Counted from the stretch's first letter, positions 2,434 through 45,272 are shown. The stretch is DNA of 64,000 bases from an uncultured bacterium (GCA_964562525.1 CAZLTL010000006.1:31187-95186); one strand, 5' to 3'. Numbers and translations: made by a program. The notes: generated by a model from the sequence alone, not told the origin.

Positions 2434-2473
2434 AATCCCTTTACTTTTTCGCTGGGAAGCCGATACTTGCCTT

Positions 2474-2830
2474 ATGGAAAACATACAGTCTCAGCTTATT
2501 AAGCCCTTCGTCGAGAAGATGGAAAAAGAGTGGCAAGCTCTTTACGACAAAATTAGCCAGGAAAAGTCGCAAGAGTCTGATAAGCTCCGCCCCGAAGTCG
2601 AAGACCATCTCGCCAAACTAAAAAAACTCCGCAGTAACGAAGAAATCTCCATGAAGTTATCCTCGACGGGAGAGGAAGCTATTCATGAATTTGTTCGGCA
2701 GTCTAAAATGGAATTTAGGGTGGCTGAGCGCCGCTGGCAACGACATATAGTGTCCCGTGAGCGAGTTAAAACCCGCGCTTCAAATCAATCCGCTAAGTTT
2801 TTGAGCCGCGAAACACCAACAAAAAAATAA
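2474..2830 (+). CDS. Hypothetical small hydrophilic, charged protein of 118 aa with probable coiled-coil character
   Basis: The ORF is intact and co-directional within the signalling cluster. No motif is recognised. Confidence 0.45.
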   Translation: MENIQSQLIKPFVEKMEKEWQALYDKISQEKSQESDKLRPEVEDHLAKLKKLRSNEEISMKLSSTGEEAIHEFVRQSKMEFRVAERRWQRHIVSRERVKTRASNQSAKFLSRETPTKK

Positions 2831-3012
2831 AAATCAAGCGGTTTTTTTTGTCGCCGCCTGGCTCGTCCTCTTTTTGCTTGCCAACGGAATACTTCATTGT
2901 AAGATAACGCCCAAGGTCGGCTGCTTTTTCTGTTATTTTCTATTTTTTTACATCTTTTTTACCGAGAGCCGTCCTCCCTTTATTACTTTTTTTGAGGGAA
3001 GGATTATCATTC

Positions 3013-4689
3013 ATGACGGTTTTAAACCGCGATCAAATTAGCGCTCGTTTGCTGAAGCGTGCTGAAGATTTTGGACGGGGATACCGCCAAAATTTGGCGT
3101 TGCTCGGACGGGTAGGGCTTGGCAAGACGAAGTTGATTGCCAAATTCACGGAAGCCGTCCGCGCGCGTGACTTTCCAATTCTCACAGTGCTCATTGATCT
3201 TGCGCCGGTTTCATCCAGCCAAATCACTTTTTATTGGATACGCTGCCTTTTATCTTCAGCGCTGCACTTACCGGACTCTTCTCTTGATGTTCTCTTGGAG
3301 ACTGCGGATGCCCAAGTTCCCAAAACGGCCAAAGCCGCGCGGCATATTTTAAAATTGTATAAGCAGGGCAATGCCGCTTTGGCCGTGCGCGAGTTGTTTG
3401 CTTTGAGCGGGCAATTAGCCGAAGAAACGGCTCGGAAAGTGGTTTTAATTCTGGATGAGTTTCTCGGTCTTGAGAAATTTGGGGTTCATGATGTTTATTC
3501 CATTTTCGGCAACCGGATGATGATGGAAAAAGAAGTTCTCTTTGTCGTGACCAGCTCGGAGTCCAAAAAATCCCGCGCTATTTTTTCAGAAAAACTCTCT
3601 TTGCTTTTCAGCAACTTTGAAACCATGGATTTACAGTCCTTCGGTTTTAAAGAAATGAATGTCCACATTGACGGACGAGCCTGCGCTTCTTACCTTTCTT
3701 TGCCGGCAAGGCGATTCTTGTTCCGTTTAACGGACGGGGAACCGCGTTATTTGGACGCGATGCTTCGCGCTTTAGATGATTTGGTTTGCACTGATCCGAA
3801 GCGTCAGCTGGGAATTGCCACTTTGTTTGAAACGGTTATGCGGGAAGTGCTTGAGTCGGATGGCCGTATTTCACTTTTGTTTCAAAAAAAAGTGGAGTCG
3901 CTTCCGCGGGGGCTTCGTGAGAGCGAGCATGTTTTGTCCGAAGCGGTGGCTTTGCTCAGCACGGGTCGTGTGAAGCCCGGTGCTTTAGCCGCTGCGCTGG
4001 GACTTAAAATTCCGGAAGCAAAGAAAATGATTACCCGCATGGAAGACGCAGGATGGCTGGTTTCAGGCGGAGCTTCTTATTCATTACGCGATCCGCTTTT
4101 CAGATTTTGGGCGCATGAAGTCTTGCTTCCAAACTGCCAGGGACAGCTTCTTGACGATAAAGCACGCCGCGGCCGCTGGATGCGTCTCTTAGGTTCTATT
4201 TATGAAATGGGATGTGAATCGGATTCCGCTAAAATTGTGACCCAGGTAGAGTCTTTGCTGAAGCAATTTCGCGCCGGAACAACGCAATTAGAAGGGCGCA
4301 AGGTTTACGGAGCCCATTTTCAGGAAATTGCCTGGTCGGTTGTGCAGGAGGGCTGCTGGAGTTTGCGGGCGATTTCGTCTAAAGAGAACCACTTTTATCT
4401 GGCTTCCTGCAGAGAGCTGACGGAAGCGGATATTGAGGAATTTAAAGCCTCCTCGGGCCGCCAAAAGAAGCGTGTTCGCCGGATTTTGGTCGTTGCGGGC
4501 GGGATTGAACAAAATGCCCGTCTTTTGGCCCAACAGTATAAAATGGATATCTGGGATTTGAGGTTCTTTAACCTCCTGCTTGATTTTTACGGCCTCTCTA
4601 AAATTATTGTGGAGAAACGTAATTCGTTGTGGGACAGCGACGGAGCGTGGGCAGGATCCGAAAGTTTGTTTAGTTCGGTTACACAATAA
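3013..4689 (+). CDS. P-loop NTPase (AAA/Arch_ATPase-like) with a large C-terminal domain of unknown function
   Basis: Walker A is LLGRVGLGKTKL and Walker B is KVVLILDEF. The track ORF starts at 2992, but that ATG lies inside the GAGGGAAGG Shine-Dalgarno-like sequence. The ATG at 3013 (MTVLNRDQ) is the better-supported start. Confidence 0.7.
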   Translation: MTVLNRDQISARLLKRAEDFGRGYRQNLALLGRVGLGKTKLIAKFTEAVRARDFPILTVLIDLAPVSSSQITFYWIRCLLSSALHLPDSSLDVLLETADAQVPKTAKAARHILKLYKQGNAALAVRELFALSGQLAEETARKVVLILDEFLGLEKFGVHDVYSIFGNRMMMEKEVLFVVTSSESKKSRAIFSEKLSLLFSNFETMDLQSFGFKEMNVHIDGRACASYLSLPARRFLFRLTDGEPRYLDAMLRALDDLVCTDPKRQLGIATLFETVMREVLESDGRISLLFQKKVESLPRGLRESEHVLSEAVALLSTGRVKPGALAAALGLKIPEAKKMITRMEDAGWLVSGGASYSLRDPLFRFWAHEVLLPNCQGQLLDDKARRGRWMRLLGSIYEMGCESDSAKIVTQVESLLKQFRAGTTQLEGRKVYGAHFQEIAWSVVQEGCWSLRAISSKENHFYLASCRELTEADIEEFKASSGRQKKRVRRILVVAGGIEQNARLLAQQYKMDIWDLRFFNLLLDFYGLSKIIVEKRNSLWDSDGAWAGSESLFSSVTQ

Positions 4690-4707: not shown

Positions 4708-6309
4708 ATGAGTCAGAAACTGGCCGCTGCGAAAAAAAATCAAAGTGTTATTGAGAAGTATTTACTGACCCACACCGACTGGAATGAAGGGTTCCGCGAG
4801 TTCAGCCGCTTGATGAAACGGCCTGATTTTTGGATTTATATTGCCCCTTCTACTTCCGAATCCAAATTAATTCCTCTCGACCGCAAAGGATCGGCCTCTT
4901 CGCTTTCTGTGCTTCAAAGCGATAAAGCTTCAACGGGTGCATTTTTAAAAAAATTCGCGGATCAATGGCTTGAAAGTTCAGAGATGCGTAAACCCTTGCC
5001 CGCATTTTTCAGGACAAACCGCAGCCGGATGGGGCTGATGCTGGGGCTAAGCCATTTGGGTAATTACAAAGGCTTTATTTTCTTAACGGAGTTTTCCTCC
5101 GGCAATGAAATGCGGGTTCGTGGTGAGCTTGAACCCTATCTCAAGCCGTTTCAGTTTTTTGCGCAGGCTCAACTGGAAATTGCTTATAAAAACTTTGAAT
5201 TGAATAATTTTTATGAAACAGTGCATCCGCGCGCGTTGGCTTTGTCGACGATGCATTCGGTGCATCGCGTTATCAGCGCGTCTTTGCGCTTAAAAGACTT
5301 GCTGCCGCGGATCGGCCGCTTAAGTGCGCAGATTTTAAAAGCCCAAGGCTGTTCCATTTTGTTAATGGACGAAGATGGTCAGCATTTGATCCCGTTCTTC
5401 GCTTTGGGCGCTCATAAACGGTATGTTCATCACCACCGCGTTCGCGTTGGAAGAGGCGTGGAGGGACGGATTGCGGATACCGGCGAGTTTCGTCTTTCTC
5501 CCAGCTGCATCGGCGTGCCTTTTATTGAGCATGATGTCGTTGGTGTGATTATGCTTTGGGATAAAGTGGACGGACAGGCCTTTACGGCAACGGACCTTGA
5601 AATTCTCAAGTCTCTTTCTGAACAAGCGGTGGTTGCCATTAAAAACGCCCAGCTTTATGAGCGCACGGAAGAGTTGACCATGGGCAGTATCCGCACCATT
5701 ACGGGCTTACTTGAGCGTCAATTCGGTAAAGACCGATCACATCTTGAGCTTGTTGCCGAAATTAGTTTGGAAGTAGGACGCCAAATGGGATTGAGAGGCA
5801 ACGATATTGTGAATTTAGAACGCGGTATTTTACTTTTGGACGCGGGGCAGTTGGTGCACCCTGAATTGACGCTGGAAAAGAAAGAGCGGCTCAGTAAGAA
5901 AGAGTTTCAGGCATTGCGTTCGCTTCCGATTAAAGCCGCGAATTTACTCAAATCGATTTCTTCTTTGAAACCGGCTTTGCCGATTATTTTGTACCGCCAC
6001 GAAAGGTTTGACGGACGGGGTTATCCGGAAGGGCTGAAGGGCGAGCAAATTCCGATCGGAGCGAGGATTGTGTCTGTTGTGGATTCGTTTACGGCCATGC
6101 TTTCAAAAAGGCATTATCGGAGGCCAAAATCGGTTTTGGAAGCTTTGCATGAGATCGAACTGCATAAACTATCTCAGTTTGACCCTCAGGTTGTGGACAC
6201 CTTCTTGAAAGTTGTCAAAAACGATGTTATTTTAGGCAAAATTCAAAACTTGGCTTTGCGGGCCGGCAGTGAAATTCGACTGCCGGTTGCCATGAAGTCT
6301 GCGGAGTAA
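4708..6309 (+). CDS. Signalling protein with an N-terminal unknown domain, a GAF domain and a C-terminal HD-GYP-like domain carrying degenerate metal-ligand motifs
   Basis: The GAF region is ...GCSILLMDEDGQHLIP...VVGVIMLWDKVDGQAFTATDLEILKSLSEQAVVAIKNAQLYERTEEL. The HD-GYP signature is YRHERFDGRGYPEGLKGEQIPIGARIVSVVDSFTAM. The canonical LLHDIGK box reads ILLLDAGQL, so the His-Asp pair is absent. Confidence 0.8.
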   Translation: MSQKLAAAKKNQSVIEKYLLTHTDWNEGFREFSRLMKRPDFWIYIAPSTSESKLIPLDRKGSASSLSVLQSDKASTGAFLKKFADQWLESSEMRKPLPAFFRTNRSRMGLMLGLSHLGNYKGFIFLTEFSSGNEMRVRGELEPYLKPFQFFAQAQLEIAYKNFELNNFYETVHPRALALSTMHSVHRVISASLRLKDLLPRIGRLSAQILKAQGCSILLMDEDGQHLIPFFALGAHKRYVHHHRVRVGRGVEGRIADTGEFRLSPSCIGVPFIEHDVVGVIMLWDKVDGQAFTATDLEILKSLSEQAVVAIKNAQLYERTEELTMGSIRTITGLLERQFGKDRSHLELVAEISLEVGRQMGLRGNDIVNLERGILLLDAGQLVHPELTLEKKERLSKKEFQALRSLPIKAANLLKSISSLKPALPIILYRHERFDGRGYPEGLKGEQIPIGARIVSVVDSFTAMLSKRHYRRPKSVLEALHEIELHKLSQFDPQVVDTFLKVVKNDVILGKIQNLALRAGSEIRLPVAMKSAE

Positions 6310-12434: not shown

Positions 12435-15400
12435 ATGAATAGAGTCCCGAGAATTTACAAGCTAATCGCAGTGTTTACCGCACTTTGCTTAGAGTGCACG
12501 TCCATCTCCATTCCCACTTTGCATGCTCAAACAGTTCCGCAAAATATTCTTTCTGTAAAAAAACTGAATCCTGAGATTCTTAAATTACCGGAAAAGTTTG
12601 GTGAGGTGGTGGAAAGCCATGCGGGAAATGGAAATGTGATTGTGGTGCAGGACGCGCACGCAATTCCGGATGCGCAGAAGAATATCGCGAATGTGATCAA
12701 GTATATGCAGCAAGAGTATGGCGTGGGAACCGTTGCACTTGAAGGTGCGAGCGGCGATCTCGATCCGCAAATCTTCCGCAGTTTTCCTGATAAGAAGCTG
12801 CTGCGAGAAGTGATGAACGGGTACATGAATTCGGGTGAAATCGCGGGCGGTACGGCTGCTGCGATTTTCGACGAAACCACAACGAAGTATGTCGGGGTAG
12901 AAGATTGGGATGTTTATGAAGAAGGTTTGGGGCTTTATCTCTCCGCGATGGATAAGACCGCAGCCATTGAAGCTCAGCTATCTGCTTTGCGTGAAAAGTT
13001 AAACAAGGAAAAAGAAGCGATTTATCCGCGGGCGTTACTTGAAGTTGATCACGAGATCGAAAAGTTTTATGAAAATGCCGCGCAGCTAACGGAACTGATT
13101 AAAGTGTTGGGAGCGATTCAAGCCCCTAAGGCAGGCAGTGAACTTGAAGCGGTGTGGAAGGAAGTTTCGAAAGCCCACAGTCCGGCGACCGGAGGCGAGA
13201 GAAAGGACATAGAGGTTCGTGCTTTAGCAGCGAAGGTCGAAAAGGTGTTAAAGAGCCCAGGGGCGGTGAAAGCGTTTAACAGCCGTAAACAAGAATGGAT
13301 GACAGGTCAGATCAGCGCAGAAGCCTTTGCACTCAATTTGAAAGAGTTTGCTGATCAAAGCGGACTTAATCTTGAGATGTCCTCCGATTTGCTCGGAATG
13401 GTACGAGACCAGCAAACGTTAAAGGGGCTTGAAGGAACCAAGCTGTTTCGGGACTTAGAGATTTATATCCGTGAAGTGAAGATGCAGTTAACGCAAAGAC
13501 AACAGACGGATGTTTCGGTTAGCGGTGTGAATGCTGAGATGTCAGCGATTCGGGCGTTGGATGAACGGACGAATTCACTGCGTGTATTAACGAAGCTATC
13601 AAAACTTGAGTTGTCCCGCCAAGAGTGGACGAATTTATCGGGGAATTTGGTGTTTGAGGCCTTTGCGGCATTGGGATTAAAACAAGAAGACTTTCTGTTC
13701 CACCTCGCTTTTTATCTGAATGCTGAAGAACGCGACCAAATCTTTTTCGATAATCTCAAAGCTTCGGTCACCGGCCTCCGGCCTTCCGTGATTGTGGCCG
13801 GTGGTTTTCACGCGGAAGGAATCACGAGCCGCCTCAAAGAGGCGGGAATGGGCTATGCGCTTGTGATGCCGAAGATCAATCACATTCCTGAAAATAACTC
13901 GTACAAAGCGCAGATGCGCGGGGAAGTGTCGTGGAAAGATTATTTTGAAGTTGAGAACGGTCGCATCCATCTTTACAAGGCGTTTGTGCGCGCAACGCGC
14001 GACAAGCTTGTCGCAGACCGGAGACCGGAGGTCGGAGGGCAGAGTGACTCAGAGCTCCGGACCCCGGACTTAGGCCTATTAAAAGCTTGGCGCGATCAAA
14101 TCATCCGTGATTTATCGGATATGGGGAAGGTGAATCGCGCGGCCTGGTACACACGGTTTATGGATGAAGTGGTGGACGAAAGCCTGAAGCACACCGATGC
14201 CGACAAGCTGATGATCAAAGTCGACAATTTTATCCGCGGTTTGCGCGGACTTGAGAAGAACAATCAAATTGATCAGGCAAATATAGCGGATTTACTCAAG
14301 GCAAGTATGGCGTCACCTGCTGTTACTTCCCCAGCTGTTGTCGGTACCCCGCTGTCGTTTCCGGTTAATCCCGCAAGTGAAGTTACCATGCAAGAAGCAT
14401 GGGCTAGCGTCCGGGAGTCTCTTCCTGTCGCCATAATTAATGCTTCTCCAGCAGATAATACGCAGTTGCAAGAGCAGGTGACGACGATTCAGGCAAATGA
14501 GCCAATTAATTACAGTGGACTCTCAGCTGAGTTTGATGCAGCAGCTATTAAGCAAACGGCCTTACTTAGCAATTTGGTTCGGCGGGTCTCAAGTATTACC
14601 GATGCAGATTTGGAGTATGAGTGGAATGAAATGGGACGACTTCTTCGTTTGGTGAACGGGATGAAAGGAGAGCCCGACCCGCGAGATCCGGAAGCAATTT
14701 TTGGTTCTGAAGAGCGCAATTTTAAACTACCGGTTGCAATGCGTTCCAAAATTGTGCGCAGTTTGAGTGAGCGAATTCAGTTTAAGTTGGCATGGACGCA
14801 TGCTGTAAATACATTTTTGAACGATGCTGAAGGTGTATCCAAGTTGGCAAGCCGGGCTGCCCCTGCATTAAGAGAGAGTAATGATGAGGGCGCGGCTGTT
14901 GAATTTGAAGTTTTGTCTCCTGGACAATTAACGGACGAAGAATTCTACCGTACTCTTTTGGGCGACAACGGAACCGTGAGCAATGGGTTGATTGGTTCGG
15001 GAAATTTAGTAGCAGCTTTTCGACTTGTTACTCAGAAAATGGCCGTCATGATCAAGGCCGGACCCGAAGGAGTTCCCGGTGGATCAAGAGAGCTAATCAA
15101 GCGCGTTCATGCCTTAGATGGAGTCGCTAAAATGATCCGCGATGAAATTACAACAATGCAGCGCTCCGAAGCGCGGGTTAATGAAAATGCGCCGACAGAT
15201 CAGGCGGCACGGGAGGAAGCGCTTGCAACTGATGAGAAGCTGAAAAGGCTTGATGTCACGACTTTCTTTAAAGAGATCCTTAAATCGGAATGGAAGTGGT
15301 TGTTGGTTGGTTTTGTTTTATTAATTTTGAGCACCATGCTCTACGACTTAGTCGCTGTTACTACGGTCGCGCAATTTTTTTTAAAATCTCTGGGGGTGGG

Positions 15401-18400
15401 TGTTGGTTTCTCTTGGGGTGCGATTTTGCTGTTCAATCCTTTGACAGTGCTTACCCATGAATTAGGGCATTTTCTAACCTACCGATTAGTTGGCGGTAAA
15501 TCCGATAACACGTTTGGTTTTAATAGGCACTCCTACTTTTTCAATGCAGATGACATATATAAACTCCCCATATGGAAAGTTCGGATTGTGGATATGGGTG
15601 GGCTTGTGATCAACACAGCTATTTTTGCCACAATTGGTCTTATTTCGTATCTTACTTTGGGCGCGACCCCTGTTCTTATTGCTCTCGCTGGACTTCAACT
15701 TGCTGAATTTATAATGGCTTCCGGTGATTATGAGAAATTCTTCAATGCCAGAGGGTATCAGGCTTTGAGCCTTGATATTGCAAAGTTTCAGGAAGAGATC
15801 AAAAATTACAAACCTGAATTTCATGCAGATGGCACGCGAATATCGGCTGAAGCTGATCGCCCTTTGGATGAGCAAACTCAACGCGAAGCACGGGTGGATA
15901 AAACAGAAGAGGCTTTGAGAAGTGGGGCGTTAACAGTTGAAGGGAAAACGGCGGTTTTTGGCCCTCAGGCGAATAAAGATTTTGCGATAGGAGTAAGCCC
16001 GGAAGTTTCATTTGTGGATTTAGATAAAGCCGATTTTGTAACGAAAGCAGAAACATTTCTCTTTCAATCGCTTTTCTTTGCGGCGGCTTTTTTAAAAATC
16101 CCTGTTGGGAAAGAGCAGAAATTAAATACTTACAAGGAAGTATTTGAAGCGCTTCAAAATGCCAAAGCCGCGGTCAAAAATGCCGGTGGCTTAAGCTTGT
16201 ATGCTGCCCAAGAAAAATTAAAAGAAGCCCAAGCTGAAAAAGATGAGTTTGTGGCTGAAGCTCAAAAGAGAGGTTTTGCCGAGTTTTTGCTTCCGGGTGG
16301 AATTCTAAGCCGCCGCATGGAGATTTTTGTTCCCAATGAAAATCAGCGCGAACGGCTTTTAAAGTATTTAACCTTAACTTTTGTAGGGCAAAGTAAGGAA
16401 TCGCTGCTCTCAGACATTCTGAAAGTGCAGCAAAAATTAGGAGTCACTTTTGATCCGGCGGTTCTTGAGCAGCTTTTAGCCGAGTTTGAATCAAAGCGCA
16501 GCTTCATGTTTCCCGGGGGAGTTTTTGCCGGGAAAATGGATGCAGAGATTCAAGATATTTTTGGTCAATTTATTCAGGTGAAAGTTTTAAGTCAAACCCA
16601 AAGTGTTTCAAGCCCCTCAGTTGGAAATATTCAGCTCAATCTTTCAGGTGCGTTGGTTATGGGGGCAGGCCAATCTGAAGTCGCTGTGGATTGGGATCAA
16701 GTTTTACAGTCAGGAGAATTGGCTCCGGCATGGTCTGAAGCTTTTACTGCACAGCTCAAGAAGGCGCTCATCTTTAAAGATGGGAAACTGCGTGTGTTTA
16801 ATCTCGGGACAGGCGACCCCACCCCGTTTAGCCAGAATCAAGATTACACACATATGGCATTTATTGTGAATGGGAAAATGATTGTTACCGATCCGTCCAT
16901 TCGCAGTATTCGTAATCTTGAGCGTTTGGGATTTTTGGAAAAAGTTGAGGCAATTCATCTGACCCATGTTCACTTTGACCATGTAGGTGGCATTTTAGAT
17001 ATAGCGCGCCGTAAACTCAAAAAATCGGAATCCTTGCCTAAGCTTAAGCTGGTTATGCCGACTGTTGTTGCGCTGCAACTCGAAAGAACTCTTGCTTATA
17101 ACTTTTCCACGATGGCTGATGATTCAAATTATGATTTCAGCCAGCTTGCGCTGGTCAGCGAACTTTTCGATTATCGGGGACCTGAGAAAATCAATAAAAC
17201 GATAGAAATTTCCCAATTACAAGAATCTGCAGAGTTTAAAGGTGTTCAAATTGAACTTGCACCAACGTTTGGACACCCGATTCCAACCTACGGAGTCAAA
17301 TTGATTACTCAAGAGGGTTTGAAGATAGCCTATTTGTCCGATTCAGTGATGCCAACCCCAACGATTAAAGCAGCGGATGGAAAGGCAATCCCTAATCCTC
17401 GATATTCGGAGTTTGTAAGTTACTATGCGGATTCAGATATATTGATTGCTGAAAATGGCGTGCCGGGCGTGCATATTACTCCCGAGCAGCTTGCCGAGGC
17501 TTTCCCTGAGCATATTAATAACGGAACTCTGTTTACTGTTCATTCGTCGGGTCCCCAAGCTCAAAAAGGGTTAATTCGATTTATGCCGGGCATGATCTTG
17601 TCTCCGCTTCAATCGAATCAAAGAAAGCAAGATGTTCAGCAAAGTGCAGCGACGCTCATTGAGAATGAAGCTATTCGAGATTTTTTAAAGTTAAATTTAG
17701 AGTTAGCCCAAGAACTTTCGAGTATGGGAACGAAGGTTTCATTTTCTGAGGGGGAAGTTCTTTTTCAGCAAGGCAACCCGGTTTATGACTTTGATCATGT
17801 TTATATTTCTTTATCCGGCGAAACAATCGTTGAGGGGCCCGGTGCAAAGCGGCTTCCTTCGATTGGAGCTGGGAGATTAATCGGTGAAATGGCGCTTTTG
17901 ACTAAGGCTTTGACGCAAGAACAATATGACCAGATCATGGTAGCCATCGGGAAGGGTAAGGATACGGCAGCGCTCGATTTTTTTGGGAGAGTGACTTACG
18001 ATTTGGTAATCGAAGGGCAGCCTCCTTATCGCATTGTGAATCCAAGTTTTGACTTAGAAATAGAAGCGAAGGAATTGACGGAGGATCAAAAATCAAAGTT
18101 AAAGCCTGTCTTTGATATTGCAAAGTCAGGTAAACCCATTCCGCGATCGGTAACGGTTCGGGCAGGTGCGGGAGCAACTTATTTAGCGATTCCCAAAGAT
18201 GCTTTTTTACAGTTTTTAACACGAATTGATGCGTCAAAAATCGATTCGAGTCGACAAGCATTCATTTCAGCTATTTACGCACAAATTGGCATCAATCTTG
18301 ATTCTCGAAAAAAGATGAGTGAGTTAGCCACTCCCACTCAGAACGAAACAGATGTGGTAAAGGCATCAGCTGATACGTCAGTTCGCTCCGAAGCGCGCGC

Positions 18401-21400
18401 GGATGTTGAATGGTTTAACTGGCGCGTGGACAAACAAGGCAATCCAGTTTCGAATGCCGGGCCTATGAGCGAGCTTGTCACTTTGAATGTTGGTGACAGT
18501 ATCTACTTTGAGGTTCCAAAAAATAAGCCGGGTTTGATCGACTATTACTACCAAGTCGGAATGGAGGGCGAGAATTTTACTTTTCAGCGCTATGAACAAA
18601 GCGGGTCTGTTGCTCAACCTGCTGGTAAGAAAATCGAAATTCCCCGATCACTGCAAACGGATAAGGCCGCTAAAAACAGTGATAACTATCTATTTAGTTT
18701 TCAAGTTAATAATGGAAAACTAATGGTGAGTTCAGGCCAGAAATATGGCTTGCTAAAAAGTAAGGTTAAAAAAGACGGAGCGATTGGTGATAGTAAACCG
18801 AGCGTGCGACGAAAAAAATTTGACGATGCCGCTCGGTCTTATCGTGAAGCATTATCAAAAACAGATTTCCCCAGGTTGAGAAGTTTGTCAGCTGAATTAG
18901 ATGAAAAAATGGACGAAATTTTGGGGGTGGCTACGAATGGTTTATTTCTAATACCGCTTGGTTGGCTTGAAGGACGAATCAAAGAAATGGATGCGGGGTT
19001 GCGTCGAATTGAGAGACATGAGTTATCGGGTCAGGGTAAAGAAGCTTTGGGCTGGGCGATGCAGGTGCTGACGGAACAAATCAATCATTTTCGAAATTCT
19101 GTTGTTGCTGTTAATTTAGAACTCAATCTTTTGACCCAAGGAGAGAAAATTAATTACGATGTTTTTAGTGAGTTGATAGAGAGCTTTCTTCAAACCAACA
19201 GCTTATTTGCATTATCTCAAGAGTTGAATGTTCGCATGCAGTCCTACCCTGAGACAATTGAGTTCAGTTTAAAAAATGTCGATGCCGATTCAAAGATTTC
19301 TGCGCTTAAAAGGCGAATTTTCGATTATGGGCAAGCAACGGCTACTTTGACGCGTCTTGAAGACGCTCGAATATTTTTTGAGAACAGCTGGAAATTGTAT
19401 GATGATCTTGTTGGGTTGATTCAGCAAATGGCATTAGAAATTCAAAGACGTGATGAAACCGAAATGACGATTGAAAGAGGTGCTGAGGCAGCAAAAGAAC
19501 AGCGCAATCAGCTTTGGCGGAGTATTGATTATTATGAAGTGCTAGGTGTTTCTCGAGATGCTTCTCTAGGGGACATAAAAAATGCTTATCGCAGTTTAGT
19601 TCGCGCGGGTAATCATCCGGATAAGGTCGCAGGCGACTCTGCTACGCTAAAAGCAGCTGAAGAGAGATTTAAAGAAATAGGACCGGCATATGAGGTCTTA
19701 AGTAATGAAGTAGACCGCGCTGAATATGACAAAATTCATTTTGCCCGTTCCGAAGCTCGTTCGGTAGACTCAGGGCAAGCGCGGGACTCGTATGAGCGCT
19801 ACAAGCTTTTATCAGGGACTTTGGCAGATTTACCTGACCCTGTATTTGTCAACGATGGGGAAACGATTACTTTGCGGATTCCGCATGATGAAGTCGAAGG
19901 TAGTCAGCCCGAGCTTGATCTTTTGGTTGTATTCAAAAAATTTAATGGGAAGGTGTTTTTTGCCCACCTAGATTCATTTTCAGACTTATCAATGCTTGAT
20001 GAATATTACCGTTCTGCTGATCCTCTTCAGGAAGGTTCTCGAATCAAATGGGAAGAGGTGAACGAGACTTCAGAAGTTGAGATTATAGGTCGTGAGGAGG
20101 AAATGGATAGTGAGGGTACCAAGGTCAAGATTGTTTTTAGTGAACAGGGTTTTACGATTGCCAATGCCTCGATCTCGGATGTTTATTATTTTGAGGGTAA
20201 GCCCGGTCCGGAAATTATTGCTTCCGCTCTTCGGGATAGTTATCTTTCAAGTGCGAGCACAGGTTTGCCCATAGCCACCGAGCCAATTTTTATTGCCGGG
20301 GAGGATGCAACTGAAATTTTTAACTTGGTCACTGAGTTTATTAATCAGGGTCCGTATGTTCCTGCTGCAGGCGAAACCGCTCTCTACACAAAGGTGAAAC
20401 AACAAATTAGGTTGATTACCGAAAGAACCGGCGAAAAGTATCGATTCAACCCGATGATTCAAATAAATGCCTTAAGTGATACTTATAGAGCTTTAAACAA
20501 TTTTCTCATGAATCGATTTACTGACCTGGAAGGCTTGGAAAAAGGTGTGGTCATTCTCAAGCGAATTCCTAATCTTGAGAAGCTGATCGAAGTTTTAAGA
20601 CATTTAATATCAGCTTACGAGCTGGCTTTTAATCACCTTGAGAATTCAACTATTGAGATCGAGGTGGATGAAAAAGAAAACCATCGGCGTCATGCCTTGC
20701 AAATGCTGGTTGAGTTAAAAAAGATTGTTAATTCATATGATTCAATTCCTCCTGCCGAACGACCGCGGGCTGAAATCCAAGGAGAAGTTCGAATGGCAAG
20801 GTTGCCCAGCCAAAAAAACTTTTCCGAGTTCATTTCTTACAATGGCGATAAAATTCCACTTTGGGCAATTAAAAGAATTTATCTGCCGGATAATAGGGTT
20901 ATTCAATTTGGTGAGATTTCTCAGGCTAATAACGAGGATGGTGTGTATGATCGGGAGGATCGCACGAGAGACGTTAGGAATGCCTTGTCACCATTTCCAG
21001 AGAGTGCGGAGATCGTTTTTGAGCTGCAAGATGGCGTTTTATTAAAGCGAATTTTGGAAGCGGAAGAGTATGAGACGATAACGGCAGTCTATCCGGTTGA
21101 TTTTGACCCCAAAGAATTTAGCAGGCTTCCGCACGGAATAGATTTACCGGAGCGGCGGTTTATAAATGCAGTTAACGTGAACGGGTTTATTACCACCCTT
21201 TATGAGTTGGAATCTCTTTTGCCTGAGACTGGGTTAGCCGGCAGGACAGTGACTTTTTTCTATTCCGCGAATAACCATCTTCAAGCCTTCAAAATCAGTG
21301 ATGAAGCTAAACCTCAGTCTGAGCAATATGTTTACTCTCAGTTTCGAAATTCAAGCAATGTTCAGCCTATGTCCGCGCCTTTTTCTGCTCAGGAAACTCA

Positions 21401-23033
21401 AGAAATTGCAAAAAAGGATTTGGTTGACCTATTTGCGGATCTCTTTAATCGCCGTGCGTTGACCTCCGCGCAGAGGGTGGTTCCGTTGAGCGCGCTTATT
21501 CTTCAATTTTTGGCTGTCTCGCTTAACGCTAAGGCTGTTTCAGATTGGGCTCAGGAAGGCAAAGTTCCGCTGTTTGAAGTTGAGTTGGCGAACGAACAAA
21601 CCATTTCATTCAGCGGGCTTAATCCTGCTTTACATCACGATGATGCCGTGCGGATTGAAAGACTGCTATCTCAGATTGACGGGGGATTGGATGCCGCTTC
21701 TTTTCGAATTGTTTTGGCGCCTGCTGGACCGGCTACCCAGTCGAATCAAGCGGGGCAATTTTTTGATCGACCCGGGCGTGGTTTGGATGAGTTCAATGCC
21801 TGGCATAAGTTATCTGATGTCTTGGAACTGTTTTTTCTGTCAGTGGGCGAAACTGGCAAAGACAAGAAATTGGATGCTGCGTCAAAACAAAAACTTTTAG
21901 ATAAACTCGCCGTGCTTGTTGAGGCGATAGCCATGATTCATCCTTCAGTAACAGGAAGTGAAATTTATCATACTTTATATGCTGTCATGGATGCTTCAAT
22001 GTTTAGGGCTAAAAAACTAGATACAGGCAGCAGAATCAATGTTTTGATTAATTTGGCGCGCCAAATCAGAGCCGCTGCGCCTCAAGATCCTCAACAGAGC
22101 ATTTATGTGCAAGGTGAGTTTGAATCAAAATTAAAGACCCCAAACTTAGATCTAAATGAATTGGCAAAAGAGACTGCCCGCTCCGAAGCCCGTTCGGCAG
22201 ACTCAGGGCAAGCGCGGGAGGCTGAGGCGGTTGCGGGAGATGTGTTTGGCTTTTTTAAATCGCCCGCGGATTATTCTGCAGACCAGATAAATACTTTGGC
22301 AGATGAAATTGATACATTGGCTGATAAACAAGGGCTTGATGTTTTTGTGAATCTCTTGCGATCGATAGCTCGAGACTTAGCTGTCGTTAGTGTTCAGGGG
22401 AGCGAAAATATTTTAAGCAAAGAAGCGACAAGTTTTGCCGTGAAACTTTTTGTTGGACGCATGATGGCAGCAAAGCGGCAGTCGACTTTAATAGATGTAA
22501 AAATCGAGAAGCCAACCATTGCTTTAGCATTAAAATTGAATGATGCCCAAAAAGCTTCTCTGGGAGATAAGTTGTCCAGCGAATTGGCTGAAATTCTGGG
22601 TGCGGTTCAGATTGAGGCCAAAGATTTTAAAGAATTAGGTGCGTTTTTTAAGAGCGTAGGGGTTTTAGTGACAACGATTGATCCCGATCTAGCAAACGCA
22701 GTTGTATTAGAAAGTTTTGGTGCGGATTGGAGTGGTTTACCTGCCGTGGGTGTCTTAGAAGAATCGCAGCAATTTGATTCGGAGTTAGAAGGGATGCGTA
22801 TTTATTTGCAGCTTTTGATCGCGGCTTATTTAGCTCGGAGCTTTCCGGATAAGAAAGTAATTTTGACACCCGAGATTGTTGGCGAGATTAATAAGCTGCT
22901 GTTTCAATCTGATGCAGGGCAAGAAGGAATTGTGCAGATACAAAATGGTCAGTTAGTTGTTAAACGAAGCAGTCTGCTGGCATATATTCAAACCTTATTC
23001 GCGGCGCAATCTGCCGTTGCAGTCGCCGCGTAA
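12435..23033 (+). CDS. Giant multi-domain membrane protein (3532 aa): signal peptide, conserved extracytoplasmic N-module, transmembrane cluster carrying HExxH, MBL-fold domain, cNMP-binding-like domain, J-domain and a long C-terminal region. It is inserted between murD and ftsW.
   Basis: This is an uninterrupted 10.6-kb ORF. It has a cleavable-looking signal peptide ([32 protein letters not shown]). Its N-module is paralogous to the two other giant ORFs, and several internal motif matches are listed separately. Confidence 0.85.
12531..13880 (+). other. Shared N-terminal module of giant 1 (motifs QDAHA at 12648-12662, LEGA, and AGGFHAEG at 13797-13820); possible Tiki/TraB/GumN-like fold
   Basis: It aligns by eye with the N-modules of the 1141-aa and 4733-aa ORFs, for example [32 protein letters not shown] versus HIQDAHA..VIKYLNTNYGFKTILVEGAASELDP. 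The xAH...E...GxxHxxG pattern resembles the TraB/GumN signature, which is an inference. Confidence 0.5.
15291..15740 (+). other. Transmembrane cluster in giant 1 carrying an intramembrane HExxH motif (HELGH at 15456-15470) of site-2-protease (M50) type
   Basis: The sequence [24 protein letters not shown], flanked by hydrophobic helices, resembles the RseP/SpoIVFB HEFGHF motif context. Confidence 0.4.
16790..17550 (+). other. Metallo-beta-lactamase-fold domain in giant 1 (HxHxDH at 16956-16991)
   Basis: The MBL motif 2 is a strong match ([12 protein letters not shown]). Downstream there are GHP and D/H positions ([22 protein letters not shown]). Confidence 0.6.
17700..17910 (+). other. cNMP-binding (CAP-family)-like domain in giant 1
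   Basis: The sequence [53 protein letters not shown] matches the G-E-x-F-x-Q-G ... F-G-E-x-A-L-L beta-roll pattern. Confidence 0.45.
19527..19733 (+). other. DnaJ-type J-domain embedded at about aa 2365-2433 of giant 1 (HPD at 19614-19622)
   Basis: The sequence [69 protein letters not shown] shows canonical helix II, the HPD loop and helix III. Confidence 0.8.
19743..19786 (+). repeat. Intragenic 44-nt near-identical direct repeat, copy A; copy B is at 22176-22219 (40/44 identical). Both encode ARSEARS(V/A)DSGQAR, and a shorter related copy is at about 18384-18404.
   Basis: The sequence gcccgttccgaagctcgttcggtagactcagggcaagcgcggga is compared with gcccgctccgaagcccgttcggcagactcagggcaagcgcggga. 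Both contain the internal palindrome ccgaa-N5-ttcgg. Confidence 0.8.
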
Positions 23034-44800: not shown

Positions 44801-45272
44801 TACGATGCGGATGCAAGCTGTTTTAAATCCAAAAATGGAATTTGAAGTTGTTGTGTTTGGAGAGCGCGGCCCGATGGTTGAAGATAAGGCTCTTTCTAAT
44901 TTGCGTATTCGTTATGCCAAAGATTTTAATTCAGCTGCTAGTTTAGTTACCAGCAAAGGCGCTATGGAGAAATTTAAAATAGGCACCAAAGTATTGATGG
45001 TTGTGCCGGAAGGTAAAGATTTTAGAAAACTAGCTTCTCAGCTCAACTTGCAAATTGTTCAGGAAGAAAATAACCATGAGAAAAATTTAGAGGCGAGTGT
45101 TGCTATGGTTGTTGGAGCTCAGAATCTTGCCAGAAATGTTGAGGCATCCGTTGATGAGGACGGTATTGAAAAAGCAGGCAAGAACTGGCGCATTACAAAG
45201 CCCTCTTTATCAAGGCTAAAGGATATTTGGCAAAGGTTTCAAGCTGCTTTGCAGGTTATGCAATCAGCGTAA
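41847..45272 (+). CDS. Large secreted/membrane-anchored protein (1141 aa): signal peptide, shared N-module, central transmembrane hairpin and C-terminal coiled-coil region. It is a paralogue of the giant ORFs.
   Basis: The signal peptide is MRSVKHKSKRWVALGACICFVATLFPDAHA. QDAHA is at 42075-42089 and GGFHAEG is at 43422-43442. The transmembrane hairpin is LIGAGIGIFGLVAAYLAALSSPILLILAIPFTASGMIYGF. It is very similar to the 4733-aa ORF over the first 550 aa or so. Confidence 0.85.
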   Translation: MRSVKHKSKRWVALGACICFVATLFPDAHAALPSIDMAVKAETPRVLNIDIPTELATVDEWYQAPSKSKPKLIVHIQDAHANYEAQTKIRDVIKYLNTNYGFKTILVEGAASELDPNILKLFPDQDRNLKLVDELAKIGEVTGAEMFLVENSDAAKGMGIEKPELYRKNFDALQKVYSEDEFVSGFFEAYEKKLGQISSRSFGPRMIQALAEWRKFESGHRDFLPFVSKLAELSKKVLEMDLGVLYSQIEWPQLTRLLVLQRVEKELEQTHDRRPTTDVEEGAQRSALSVKQQAELEKQNIIDLMKVAQSPEGLIRGLENFNEKSANLNRIGSSEVRQASAPRALMEALVEEGAKFGLNIRDYPAFAKYAGYLILRGEIVPAELFEEIKKLFDLILESLVKEAPSAAMESTDDLAARKRLLLLHRDEMLARKLLKLELTHDEWLAVLNRQDRFYPDDLNRRMLEQLGQNTRVKETGGEEASQMKKLNEAFRAAFTFYSAAVNRDTFFFQRTQEVLAQTDKAILITGGFHAEGMKYFFRKYDINYGTLTPRITQEFTNEQYRKVMMTGVEKNKAEITQQLQEGSSAVEESDTPKSKKAAKENYLGAESLIDPLSDGLVGGTRSEVRRNIVQMLAVSLGLPKIQQETSLAAPAQVAVSRQPRSIAVRFESVSAPQGFLSVLEGQRALIGAGIGIFGLVAAYLAALSSPILLILAIPFTASGMIYGFDQYFKAQYLISNATKAGSVELTDRLATSSQTEVPVVVQRTEVAQVDAEPLTFTSVLTELEVERAKSEPDAARLADLVAQLVDLAGDIEEAKQAQNVLRDLRVKYKNQLNPSQSTNLIMKVAQLAVKLNQFQQAQKLYEREEIVVTAKAPREAIFAALSPEDRGILKRMAFDDLENQIIDAKDLSASQAVAILITYGFISDKDRNAAKNLAILASLAVTKIAPQRVSELAEMVRAFFPEMVSSDLGYLGRIIDANGIGNKLDTMRMQAVLNPKMEFEVVVFGERGPMVEDKALSNLRIRYAKDFNSAASLVTSKGAMEKFKIGTKVLMVVPEGKDFRKLASQLNLQIVQEENNHEKNLEASVAMVVGAQNLARNVEASVDEDGIEKAGKNWRITKPSLSRLKDIWQRFQAALQVMQSA

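What the first reader, a model, noticed from the sequence alone, without database searches (positions are those of the whole stretch)
16790..17910. Metallo-beta-lactamase fold followed by a cNMP-binding-like domain in giant 1
[12 protein letters not shown] is a strong HxHxDH MBL signature. About 230 residues later a CAP-type beta-roll pattern appears ([12 protein letters not shown]...[12 protein letters not shown]). A nucleotide-sensing domain next to an MBL hydrolase, plus the J-domain further downstream, indicates a regulated cytoplasmic enzymatic portion. These modules are normally separate small proteins.
Basis: partly seen in the sequence, partly recalled or inferred. Interest (0 to 1): 0.55.

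Follow-up and report, generated by a model that had tools for sequence, protein, structure and literature searches.

The report
Cyclic-nucleotide [17 protein letters not shown] cassette in giant protein
A 3,532-residue protein of an uncultured Omnitrophota bacterium carries a real, intact enzyme cassette: a zinc-type [17 protein letters not shown] fused to a cyclic-nucleotide sensor, the design of the slime-mould cGMP/cAMP-stimulated [18 protein letters not shown], here built as a swappable module of a variable giant protein that probably leaves the cytoplasm.

Summary
ORF 12435-23033 (+, 3,532 aa) holds a metallo-beta-lactamase (MBL) domain (aa 1449-1722) with every metal-ligand motif. These motifs are conserved in all members of a ~27%-identical family that span them. 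A complete cyclic-nucleotide-binding (CNB) domain follows (aa 1747-1959). It looks truncated to Pfam only because a ~72-aa structured insert splits its phosphate-binding cassette. A J-domain with HPD lies downstream.

MBL+CNB is not an odd meeting of separate proteins. The cassette aligns collinearly with a Dictyostelium purpureum protein labelled 3',5'-cGMP [17 protein letters not shown], of GbpA/GbpB architecture (hhalign 99.1%), and with bacterial ~945-aa MBL+2xCNB proteins (99.6%). Its closest solved folds are Apyc1, ElaC/RNase Z-type proteins and YhfI. The most likely function is a cyclic-nucleotide-gated cyclic-nucleotide [17 protein letters not shown].

"Cytoplasmic" is doubtful. Most full-length family members start with a Sec-type signal peptide and have no, or an apparently even number of, transmembrane segments before the cassette.

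The new points are context. The ~830-aa cassette recurs in giant proteins of PVC-group bacteria, flanked by RSExR motifs. The gene sits between murD and ftsW in three related genomes. One of these replaces the cassette region with unrelated sequence and carries NUDIX, 2H and DnaJ domains elsewhere.

Verdict: new variant of a known kind.

The parts
12435..23033 (+). Giant ORF, 3,532 aa, uninterrupted. Identical to database protein P0007.
   Evidence: Orthologue P0010 (3,501 aa) is 69% identical over aa 1-644, 48% over aa 1168-1988 and 78% over the C-terminal HSP.
12435..12527 (+). Sec-type signal peptide (MNRVPRIYK + hydrophobic core + TLHA|Q). The homologous position in P0010 reads LARA|E.
   Evidence: By inspection; hydrophobic segment aa 10-29. 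No dedicated signal-peptide predictor was available.
12528..13994 (+). Family N-terminal domain (~490 aa), shared with both other large proteins of the window and with P0010, P0012-15 and P0019. Invariant H(QDAH), EGA, R and GGFH.
   Evidence: AF2 model pLDDT 79, but no PDB fold match and no PDB sequence match.
15162..15176 (+). RSEAR motif 1 (aa 910-914).
15291..15716 (+). Membrane cassette with about four hydrophobic segments and HELGH (nt 15456-15470). Membrane-embedded zincin-like. Absent from orthologue P0010.
   Evidence: Pfam DUF3267 15.8 bits. NCBIfam YydH/LiaK metalloprotease 25 bits, E 1e-5. Hydropathy. Absence in P0010.
15879..15893 (+). QREAR, a degenerate RSExR motif just upstream of the cassette. 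It corresponds to RSESR at aa 1394 of P0010.
15996..16778 (+). Pre-MBL domain (aa 1188-1448, helical plus a beta subdomain). Part of the conserved cassette. From about aa 1276 it is also homologous to the bacterial MBL+2xCNB proteins.
   Evidence: hhalign query columns 89-625.
16779..17600 (+). MBL-fold [17 protein letters not shown] domain (aa 1449-1722). Motif residues: D1486 (16890), HVHFDH (16965-16982), H1614 (17274), D1636 (17340), ENGVPGVH (17451-17474), H1703 (17541).
   Evidence: Pfam. Conserved motifs. Foldseek top hits Apyc1 7u2r/7u2s, E 4e-10, TM-score on target 0.70-0.73. Coordinates.
17613..17663 (+). Linker helix between the MBL and CNB domains. It lies within the stretch that aligns collinearly with the Dictyostelium homologue.
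17673..17912 (+). CNB domain, N-terminal part: beta-roll strands 1-6 and the phosphate-binding-cassette helix, with G1817-E1818.
   Evidence: Pfam cNMP_binding 2-58/89. G and E invariant.
17913..18128 (+). About 72-aa structured insert inside the phosphate-binding cassette. Helices plus a beta hairpin, pLDDT 73-89. Present in all family members that span this region (65-82 aa in the four measured).
18129..18311 (+). CNB domain, C-terminal part: P1903-R1904-S1905 (the phosphate-binding Arg, invariant), strands 7-8 and the B/C helices.
18384..18398 (+). RSEAR motif 2 (aa 1984-1988). The homology block with P0010 ends exactly here (P0010 RSEAR at aa 2226).
19527..19730 (+). J-domain (aa 2365-2432), HPD at nt 19614-19622. 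This cassette is absent from orthologue P0010.
   Evidence: Pfam DnaJ 63.4 bits. NCBIfam DnaJ models cover the N-terminal J part only. Absence in P0010.
19746..19760 (+). RSEAR motif 3 (aa 2438-2442), within [15 protein letters not shown]. Sequence identity with P0010 resumes exactly here.
22179..22193 (+). RSEAR motif 4 (aa 3249-3253), within [15 protein letters not shown].
23004..23030 (+). C-terminal tail AQSAVAVAA. Similar tails (…QSA, …IQSAA, …IQRAA, …IKSSA) end most family members.

Best explanation
Nt ~15894-18383 encode one self-contained ~830-aa cassette. It consists of a pre-domain, a binuclear-metal MBL-fold [17 protein letters not shown] of the RNase Z / class II PDE lineage, a linker helix, and a single CAP-type cyclic-nucleotide-binding domain.

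The cassette most likely hydrolyses 3',5'-cyclic mononucleotides to 5'-NMPs. Its activity is probably switched by the same or a related cyclic nucleotide binding to the CNB domain, which is the logic of the Dictyostelium cNMP-stimulated [18 protein letters not shown] GbpA/GbpB.

Shown here:
- Both domains are present, and their catalytic and ligand-contact residues are conserved.
- The fold is as stated.
- The cassette is homologous to a protein of GbpA/GbpB architecture across both domains.
- The cassette is modular.

Inferred:
- The substrate.
- Activation by ligand.
- What the ~72-aa insert in the phosphate-binding cassette does.

The giant protein that carries the cassette is a polymorphic, signal-peptide-bearing multi-cassette protein of an Omnitrophota bacterium. 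The cassette therefore probably does not work in the producer's cytoplasm, but the place of action is unresolved.
For: 1. Domains and motifs. Pfam finds both domains. D1486, HxHxDH 1511-1516, H1614, D1636, E1673/H1680 and H1703, together with the phosphate-binding-cassette G1817-E1818 and R1904, are invariant or nearly invariant across 12 cassettes at 24-51% identity. They are also conserved in the 7-sequence alignment with more distant proteins.

2. Fold. The AF2 model has pLDDT 82.9 and pTM 0.83. The best PDB matches are Apyc1 (7u2r/7u2s, E ~4e-10). Further hits include the ElaC homologue 1zkp, RNase Z/ELAC2, a PhnP-family diphosphatase, YhfI (6kns) and a cAMP-bound MBL protein (7e3w). The C-terminal part matches PKG and PKA-R CNB domains (E 4e-5 to 1e-4). 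Apyc1 and YhfI are class II MBL-fold enzymes that cleave cyclic mononucleotides (PMC9117128).

3. Family link. A profile of the cassette retrieves P0027 at E 2e-9. P0027 is Dictyostelium purpureum XP_003290560, labelled '3',5'-cyclic-GMP [17 protein letters not shown]', and has MBL + 2 CNB. hhalign gives 99.1% probability, E 6e-19, over 388 collinear columns running from before the MBL domain to the CNB phosphate-binding-cassette helix. Against the bacterial ~945-aa MBL+2xCNB proteins it gives 99.6%, E 9e-25, 486 columns. GbpA/GbpB are activated by cNMP binding to CNB domains downstream of the MBL catalytic domain (PMC11988041).

4. The CNB domain is complete. Removing the insert restores a full-length PF00027 match in the window protein and in 4 homologues (40-56 bits).

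5. The cassette is a unit. 14 proteins match the whole ~800 aa at E<1e-30. They include a stand-alone 867-aa protein and giants of 3,501-7,620 aa.
Against: - No enzymology exists for any member of this cassette family.
- Apart from an N-terminal-only match to Lactamase_B just above its cut-off (23.9 against 22.7), MBL subfamily models all score below their cut-offs: Lactamase_B_2 26.1 against 27, Apyc1 19 against 50, RNase Z 13 against 293.
- RNase Z / ElaC structures are nearly as good fold matches as the cyclic-nucleotide PDEs, so a nucleic-acid or other phosphodiester substrate cannot be excluded.
- The cassette has one CNB domain, not the two of GbpA/GbpB.
- Its phosphate-binding cassette is split by a ~72-aa subdomain that could block or re-purpose the pocket.
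- If the cassette is exported into the periplasm, it is unclear where a cyclic-nucleotide ligand would come from.
- No nucleotide cyclase was seen near the gene.
Confidence: 0.6

Rival explanations
1. The MBL domain is an RNase Z / ElaC-like nuclease, or another [17 protein letters not shown] acting on RNA, DNA or nucleotide-sugar or lipid-linked phosphodiesters. The CNB-like domain is an allosteric or protein-binding module that no longer reads a cyclic nucleotide.
For: - ElaC homologue 1zkp and human ELAC2 complexes are among the top fold matches (E 3e-8 to 1e-6).
- The cassette has the LIxE...H(I/S)T and terminal VHS motifs typical of the RNase Z lineage (motif knowledge from memory).
- The phosphate-binding cassette carries a large insert.
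- The gene lies inside the cell-wall/division cluster.
Against: - The best matches are cyclic-mononucleotide PDEs.
- Homology to a protein of GbpA/GbpB architecture runs through both domains and the linker.
- The Gly-Glu and Arg that contact ribose and phosphate in CNB domains are invariant across the family despite ~27% overall identity. This is hard to explain if nucleotide binding had been lost.
- RNase Z models score far below threshold (13 against 293 bits).
Confidence: 0.2
2. The segment after the membrane region is cytoplasmic, and the MBL-CNB-J part is a regulated enzymatic portion that works in the producer's own cytoplasm, for example as a feedback PDE of its own cNMP signalling, tethered at the membrane or division site.
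For: - CNB domains and J-domains are cytoplasm-typical. J-domains need Hsp70 and ATP (general knowledge).
- The more distant bacterial MBL+2xCNB relatives P0002-6 have no signal peptide.
- P0011 (7,620 aa) starts with a P-loop motif and has no hydrophobic segment.
- The transmembrane count in the window protein is only a hydropathy estimate; if it were odd, the cassette would be cytoplasmic.
Against: - Orthologue P0010 and relatives P0001, P0013, P0014 and P0015 have a Sec-type N-terminus and no credible membrane segment before the cassette.
- The window's extra membrane cassette has about four segments. This keeps both flanks on the same side, as expected for an insertion into a topologically uniform protein.
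Confidence: 0.35
3. The MBL domain performs non-phosphodiester chemistry (beta-lactam, acyl-homoserine lactone, thioester/glyoxalase II or sulfatase).
For: Weak sequence hits to glyoxalase II (7l0b, E 1e-4, N-terminal 55 residues only), to an arylsulfatase, and to B3 lactamase / AidB models at 12-18 bits.
Against: - All these hits cover only the HxHxDH neighbourhood.
- Whole-domain fold and profile comparisons place it with the RNase Z / class II PDE lineage.
- The E...H(IT) motif is characteristic of that lineage.
- Fusion to a nucleotide sensor argues for a nucleotide substrate.
Confidence: 0.04
4. The cassette is a decayed, non-functional remnant inside a rapidly shuffling giant gene.
For: The cassette is less conserved between orthologues (48%) than the termini (69% and 78%).
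Against: - All catalytic and ligand-contact residues are conserved across cassettes from different PVC lineages.
- The predicted fold is confident and compact.
- The reading frame is uninterrupted over 10.6 kb.
Confidence: 0.03

Closest known systems
Dictyostelium GbpA (PdeD) / GbpB (PdeE), class IIb cNMP-stimulated cNMP [18 protein letters not shown]
   Same: - An MBL-fold catalytic domain is followed, through a conserved linker, by a CAP-type CNB domain.
- The cassette aligns collinearly with a D. purpureum protein of this architecture (MBL + 2 CNB, labelled 3',5'-cGMP [17 protein letters not shown]) over 388 columns covering both domains (99.1%).
- All MBL motifs align.
- The known logic is that the substrate or a related cNMP binds the CNB domains and activates hydrolysis (PMC11988041).
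   Different: - One CNB domain instead of two.
- A ~72-aa structured insert splits the phosphate-binding cassette.
- Bacterial (PVC group) rather than amoebozoan.
- Embedded as a cassette in a 3,532-aa signal-peptide-bearing protein rather than a free cytosolic enzyme.
- Only about 24% identity.
Bacterial ~945-aa MBL + 2xCNB proteins (P0002-P0006; one is labelled 'CRP-like cAMP-binding protein'); uncharacterised
   Same: Pre-domain + MBL + CNB-A are homologous over 486 columns (99.6%), with the same motifs.
   Different: These proteins have no signal peptide, carry a second canonical CNB domain, have no insert in the phosphate-binding cassette, and are stand-alone.
Apyc1 (phage anti-Pycsar) and B. 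subtilis YhfI, class II MBL-fold cyclic-mononucleotide [18 protein letters not shown]
   Same: - Apyc1 is the best solved-structure match for the catalytic domain (TM-score on target 0.70-0.73).
- HxHxDH di-zinc chemistry (PMC9117128).
- Pfam PF23023 gives the strongest precomputed hit for several relatives.
   Different: - Apyc1 and YhfI are ~240-aa single-domain dimers without a sensor domain.
- The window protein scores 19 bits against a cut-off of 50 for PF23023.
- No evidence here for an anti-defence role.
RNase Z / ElaC
   Same: Same MBL sub-lineage by fold and by the E...H(S/I)T and terminal H motifs.
   Different: Profile scores are far below threshold. No tRNA-related context. Fused to a CNB domain.
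Polymorphic toxin/effector proteins and the giant proteins described for Omnitrophota (10.1101/2023.11.21.568195; 10.64898/2026.06.07.730766)
   Same: - A conserved N-terminal part with interchangeable downstream cassettes among close relatives.
- The host phylum is known for giant genes and a host-dependent or predatory lifestyle (PMC10066038).
   Different: - In the window protein and P0010 the C-terminal ~1,100 aa are also conserved, so the variable cassettes are internal.
- Neither giant-gene paper mentions lactamase, cyclic-nucleotide or DnaJ domains.
- No immunity gene or dedicated secretion system was identified next to the gene.

Membership tests
Metallo-beta-lactamase superfamily (Pfam Lactamase_B / Lactamase_B_2) | HxHxDH motif | tested here: met
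   H1511-V-H1513-F-D1515-H1516. Invariant in A2, nearly invariant in A3.
Metallo-beta-lactamase superfamily (Pfam Lactamase_B / Lactamase_B_2) | Downstream metal ligands (His, Asp, His) and upstream Asp | tested here: met
   D1486, H1614, D1636 and H1703 are invariant or nearly invariant and align with the same residues of the Dictyostelium PDE homologue.
Metallo-beta-lactamase superfamily (Pfam Lactamase_B / Lactamase_B_2) | Alpha-beta/beta-alpha sandwich fold | tested here: met
   The AF2 model (pLDDT mostly 86-96 in this domain) matches many solved MBL-fold proteins at probability 1.00.
Metallo-beta-lactamase superfamily (Pfam Lactamase_B / Lactamase_B_2) | Score above the curated Pfam cut-off | tested here: inconclusive
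   Lactamase_B 23.9 against 22.7 (passes, N-terminal part only). Lactamase_B_2 26.1 against 27 (just fails).
GbpA/GbpB-type (class IIb) cNMP-stimulated [18 protein letters not shown] | MBL catalytic domain homologous to that of GbpA, directly followed by a CNB domain | tested here: met
   hhalign 99.1%, E 6e-19, 388 collinear columns against D. purpureum XP_003290560, which has the GbpA/GbpB architecture.
GbpA/GbpB-type (class IIb) cNMP-stimulated [18 protein letters not shown] | Two tandem CNB domains after the catalytic domain | tested here: not met
   Only one CNB domain. Relatives P0002-6, P0021, P0022, P0027 and P0035 each have two matched stretches.
GbpA/GbpB-type (class IIb) cNMP-stimulated [18 protein letters not shown] | Hydrolysis of cAMP/cGMP and activation by cNMP binding | not testable with these tools
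   Needs enzyme assays.
CAP/CNB domain family (PF00027) | Eight-stranded beta-roll with flanking helices | tested here: met
   The model's secondary structure fits a beta-roll. Foldseek hits PKG and PKA-R CNB domains with TM-score on target 0.6-0.73. Pfam 30.0 against 27.5.
CAP/CNB domain family (PF00027) | Phosphate-binding-cassette residues Gly-Glu ... Arg-(Ser/Thr) | tested here: met
   G1817-E1818 and R1904-S1905. G, E and R are invariant in the family.
CAP/CNB domain family (PF00027) | Short, contiguous phosphate-binding cassette (about 14 residues) | tested here: not met
   A 65-82-aa insert lies between the cassette helix and the Arg in the window protein and the four homologues measured. 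Excising it raises the Pfam match to full length.
CAP/CNB domain family (PF00027) | Binding of a cyclic nucleotide | not testable with these tools
   Needs binding assays or a structure.
Apyc1 (PF23023) | Score above the curated cut-off (50 bits) | tested here: not met
   19.2 bits, profile positions 19-92 only. Apyc1 is nevertheless the best structural match.
RNase Z (TIGR02651 / NF000801) | Score above the curated cut-off | tested here: not met
   13-16 bits against 250-293.
J-domain (PF00226) | Profile match and HPD tripeptide | tested here: met
   63.4 bits, full profile 1-63, HPD at aa 2394-2396. No DnaJ zinc-finger or C-terminal domains; NCBIfam matches cover the J part only.

The most novel reading that the evidence does not exclude
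The murD-ftsW giant may be a Sec-exported, polymorphic multi-effector protein of a host-dependent or predatory Omnitrophota cell. On this reading its interchangeable cassettes (MBL-CNB [17 protein letters not shown], J-domain, and NUDIX and 2H domains in a sister genome) are separated by RSExR motifs that serve as processing or junction sites. The cassettes would act in another cell's cytoplasm. There the cNMP-gated [17 protein letters not shown] would sense and erase the victim's cyclic-nucleotide messengers, possibly including immune signals, as phage Apyc1 does. The J-domain would recruit the victim's Hsp70.
Probability: 0.15. Interest if true: 0.85.

Novelty: new variant of a known kind. 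Interest (0 to 1): 0.55.

Why it matters
If the biochemical reading holds, the cNMP-stimulated MBL-fold [17 protein letters not shown] design would extend to a defined bacterial clade. In the literature searched here it was found described only for Dictyostelium. The bacterial variant has a single sensor domain whose phosphate-binding cassette carries a conserved inserted subdomain, which makes it a natural experiment in how CNB domains gate an enzyme.

The context matters more. The cassette is one of several cassettes, most of them nucleotide-directed enzymes, that are swapped in and out of a giant, signal-peptide-bearing protein at a fixed chromosomal site in Omnitrophota. This phylum has no cultured members and its giant proteins are largely uncharacterised. 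The locus gives a concrete, testable handle (cassette boundaries, motifs, candidate activities) on what at least one class of these giants does. It also allows a test of whether nanobacteria interfere with the nucleotide signalling of their hosts.

Tried and rejected
- Homologue search with the whole 3,532-aa protein timed out.
- Exact look-up of the giant in the contig index found nothing, although the protein is in the representative library as P0007.
- The word-index search with the 12-sequence cassette alignment returned nothing at E<=1e-10, which cost the last such search.
- Rfam found no RNA families in the window.
- Promoter and terminator scans around the gene gave counts no higher than shuffled sequence, so there is no evidence for a separate transcription unit.
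- N-terminal family domain: I suspected a Tiki/TraB/ChaN-like fold from the H...EGA...R...GGFH pattern (from memory). A confident-enough model (pLDDT 79) found no PDB fold match (best E 0.24), and the profile found no PDB sequence match. That idea is therefore unsupported.
- The remaining regions searched against PDB sequences (aa 1989-2364 and 2443-3532) gave no hits.
- PADLOC gave only weak generic CNB similarity to Pycsar/TIR effector models (17-18 bits). I do not count this as evidence for a defence or anti-defence role.
- The BFVD viral fold search gave two unnamed MBL hits and nothing informative.
- A DNA-level repeat as the cause of the RSEAR motifs is rejected. The codons differ at synonymous positions (GCG/GCA/GCT/GCC, CGG/CGC/CGT), so conservation is at the peptide level.
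- The hydrophobic stretch at P0010 aa 2265-2283 is probably not a membrane segment, because it has acidic flanks.
Full report
**What is there**

The finding lies inside a single uninterrupted ORF, 12435-23033 on the + strand, coding for 3,532 aa.
- [12 protein letters not shown] at aa 1508 (nt 16956).
- [12 protein letters not shown] at aa 1770.
- [12 protein letters not shown] at aa 1811.

Pfam on the whole protein reports:
- DnaJ: aa 2365-2432, 63 bits.
- cNMP_binding: aa 1768-1827, 30.0 bits against a cut-off of 27.5, but only profile positions 2-58 of 89.
- Lactamase_B: 23.9 against 22.7.
- Lactamase_B_2: 26.1 against 27.
- Weak Apyc1 and DUF3267 (zincin) matches.

**Relatives**

A word-index search with aa 1401-1986 found one protein, P0001. 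It has 867 aa and its own signal peptide, and it aligns with giant aa 1189-1928 at 29% identity. A profile of the two sequences, run against 1.8 billion representatives, found 14 proteins matching the whole ~800 aa at E<1e-30. These are:
- The window protein itself (P0007, identical).
- An orthologue, P0010 (3,501 aa).
- Proteins of 1,137 to 7,620 aa.
- Three fragments.

One cluster contains a protein annotated in Candidatus Orphnella occulta, which belongs to Omnitrophota. A scan of reference genomes found nine loci in MAGs labelled Planctomycetia, Verrucomicrobiota or Limisphaerales.

Across 12 cassettes at 24-51% identity the following residues are invariant, or missing only where a fragment lacks the region:
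- D1486.
- H1511, H1513, D1515, H1516.
- H1614.
- D1636.
- E1673 and H1680 (within [12 protein letters not shown]).
- H1703.
- In the sensor domain, G1817-E1818 and R1904.

**The sensor domain is complete but split**

In the window protein and in all relatives that span the region, a 65-82-aa stretch (measured in the window and four homologues) lies between the phosphate-binding-cassette helix ([10 protein letters not shown]) and the Pro-Arg-Ser that normally follows within a few residues. I deleted aa 1827-1898 in silico. The Pfam match rose from 30 bits (profile 2-58) to 43.4 bits over profile 2-87 of 89. Four homologues behaved the same way, at 40-56 bits. The domain runs on to about nt 18311.

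**Structure**

An AlphaFold2 model of aa 1188-1960, built with the 12-sequence alignment, has pLDDT 82.9 and pTM 0.83. The insert is predicted as a folded helices-plus-hairpin subdomain with pLDDT 73-89.

Against the PDB:
- The best matches are Apyc1 (7u2r/7u2s, E ~4e-10, TM-score 0.70-0.73 on the target).
- Further hits include a Bacillus anthracis ElaC homologue, ELAC2/RNase Z, a PhnP-family enzyme, MBLBt2, YhfI and a cAMP-bound MBL protein.
- The C-terminal part matches PKG and PKA regulatory-subunit CNB domains.

Apyc1 and YhfI are class II, MBL-fold enzymes that hydrolyse cyclic mononucleotides (PMC9117128).

**Family assignment**

The fusion is not unusual in itself. Dictyostelium GbpA and GbpB are class IIb [18 protein letters not shown]. 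In them, an MBL catalytic domain is followed by two CNB domains whose occupancy activates hydrolysis (PMC11988041).

- The cassette profile retrieves P0027 at E 2e-9. This is a Dictyostelium purpureum protein labelled 3',5'-cyclic-GMP [17 protein letters not shown], with MBL + 2 CNB.
- A profile-sequence alignment with it is collinear over 388 columns, from the beta subdomain before the MBL domain, through all MBL motifs and the linker, to the CNB phosphate-binding-cassette helix (99.1%, E 6e-19).
- Bacterial ~945-aa proteins with MBL + 2 CNB align over 486 columns, including part of the pre-domain (99.6%).

The cassette is therefore a divergent branch of this family. It has lost, or never had, the second CNB domain, and it has gained an insert in the first.

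**Most likely mechanism**

The cassette is most likely a binuclear-metal [17 protein letters not shown] that opens 3',5'-cyclic nucleotides, gated by nucleotide binding to its CNB domain.
- Shown: the domains, their conserved residues, the fold, the homology.
- Inferred: the substrate, the activation, the role of the insert.

The main rival is an RNase Z-like nuclease with a re-purposed CNB domain. This is weakened by the invariance of the ribose- and phosphate-contact residues.

**Where it works**

- The giant begins with a Sec-type signal peptide, and so do most full-length relatives.
- P0001, P0010, P0013, P0014 and P0015 have no credible hydrophobic segment between that peptide and the cassette.
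- The window protein has an extra membrane cassette (aa 953-1094, with HELGH). It shows weak similarity to DUF3267 and to YydH/LiaK membrane metalloproteases. It has about four hydrophobic segments, an even number, which keeps both flanks on the same side.

Sequence thus predicts export. Yet CNB and J domains normally work in a cytoplasm. I could not resolve this. It either means that the hydropathy-based topology is wrong, or that the protein acts in another cell.

**The carrier protein is modular and polymorphic**

Compared with its orthologue P0010, the window protein is 69% identical over aa 1-644, 48% over the cassette, and 78% over the C-terminal HSP. True identity in that last block begins at aa 2438. 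The stretches in between are unrelated. P0010 lacks the membrane-zincin cassette and the J-domain cassette and has other sequence instead.

Three of the four homology breakpoints fall on a pentapeptide, RSExR:
- The cassette is flanked by QREAR/RSEAR in the window, by RSESR/RSEAR in P0010, and by RSELR on both sides (the downstream copy ~250 aa beyond the cassette) in P0013.
- Identity with P0010 resumes exactly at RSEARS(V/T)[12 protein letters not shown].
- RSExR occurs 14 times in the 9,406 aa of the three largest proteins of the window and never in the other 10,365 aa. Shuffling gives a mean of 0.17 and a maximum of 2.
- Its codons vary at synonymous sites, so conservation is at the peptide level.

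**Genomic setting**

The window comes from an Omnitrophota bacterium. Its MraY and MurD cluster at >=90% identity with proteins of 'Candidatus Omnitrophota bacterium' MAGs.

The giant gene lies between murD and ftsW, inside an otherwise canonical division/cell-wall cluster: murE, murF, mraY, murD, [giant], ftsW, murG, murC, murB, ddl. The same position is occupied in the orthologue's contig and in a third, closely related genome.

In that third genome the gene is 7,346 aa. It shares only the first 646 aa (75% identity) with the window protein, at least within the 3,250 aa held here. Its precomputed Pfam annotation is NUDIX, 2H-SAK and DnaJ, with no MBL or CNB. Other family members are not in such clusters.

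Neither paper on Omnitrophota giant genes that I checked mentions lactamase, cyclic-nucleotide or DnaJ domains.

**Verdict**

- It is wrong that the fusion is unusual.
- It is probably wrong, or at least unproven, about the cytoplasmic location.

The cassette is a new variant of a known kind (a [17 protein letters not shown] of GbpA/GbpB architecture). What makes it worth following is its role as one interchangeable cassette, alongside other nucleotide-directed enzyme cassettes, in a polymorphic giant protein of a phylum thought to be host-dependent or predatory (PMC10066038; 10.1101/2023.11.21.568195).

Noticed in passing
window 6999-28542; L012; L016-L018: The giant gene is inserted between murD and ftsW in an otherwise canonical division/cell-wall cluster (murE, murF, mraY, murD, [giant], ftsW, murG, murC, murB, ddl). 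The position is conserved in three related Omnitrophota genomes, while the gene's length (3,532 / 3,501 / 7,346 aa) and internal content differ.
   Followed up: partly
window 15162, 15879, 18384, 19746, 22179 (giant 1); 43707 (1,141-aa ORF); ten sites in 45438-59639 (giant 2): The pentapeptide RSExR occurs 14 times in the three largest proteins and never in the other ORFs (shuffle mean 0.17). It coincides with homology breakpoints between orthologues and flanks the MBL-CNB cassette in three proteins. Codons vary at synonymous sites. It may be a processing or junction motif. It was not mentioned in the passages retrieved from the two Omnitrophota giant-gene papers, but it was never searched for directly.
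   Followed up: partly
window 23004-23030, 45240-45269, 59607-59636; C-termini of P0001, P0008-13, P0019: The three large window proteins and most cassette-family proteins end in a similar small-residue tail (…AQSAVAVAA, …LQVMQSA, …LATAQSA, …KAIQSAA, …SIQRAA, …AIKSSA). This may be a C-terminal sorting or recognition signal.
   Followed up: no
window 12528-13994, 41847-43600, 45438-47200: All three large proteins share an N-terminal ~500-aa domain after a signal peptide (giant 2 against the 1,141-aa protein: 43% identity over ~580 aa; giant 1 against both: 21-29%). Invariant residues are H(QDAH), EGA, R and GGFH. The AF2 model has pLDDT 79 but finds no fold or sequence match in the PDB.
   Followed up: partly
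L016 11503-21254 (GCA_035436425.1, DAOMWF010000002.1): The sister genome's giant at the same locus (7,346 aa) carries NUDIX, 2H-SAK and DnaJ domains (precomputed Pfam) and no MBL-CNB cassette. NUDIX and 2H, like the MBL-CNB cassette, are nucleotide-directed enzymes. Only the first 3,250 aa could be read here.
   Followed up: partly
window 15291-15716: A membrane cassette of about four hydrophobic segments with HELGH. It shows weak similarity to DUF3267 and to YydH/LiaK epipeptide-maturation metalloproteases. It is present in the window protein but absent from its orthologue. If RSExR sites are cleaved, this cassette is a candidate in-cis protease.
   Followed up: no
window 45438-59639 (giant 2, 4,733 aa): Weak, sub-threshold Pfam hits to a Pol-beta-type nucleotidyltransferase (aa 4088-4124, E 0.005) and to the DHH [15 protein letters not shown] family (E 0.16). 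These hint that this giant may also carry nucleotide-directed cassettes.
   Followed up: no
window 4708-6309: A GAF + HD_5 (HD-GYP-like) protein lies just upstream of the mur genes. It is another putative nucleotide-second-messenger phosphohydrolase in the same neighbourhood, and it is conserved in the sister genome (L016).
   Followed up: no
L013 64-780 / L014 13-780: On the contig of cassette-family member P0014, a separate small (238-255 aa) stand-alone MBL protein with an Apyc1 Pfam hit lies ~7 kb upstream, next to bAvd-like and MazG-like genes.
   Followed up: no
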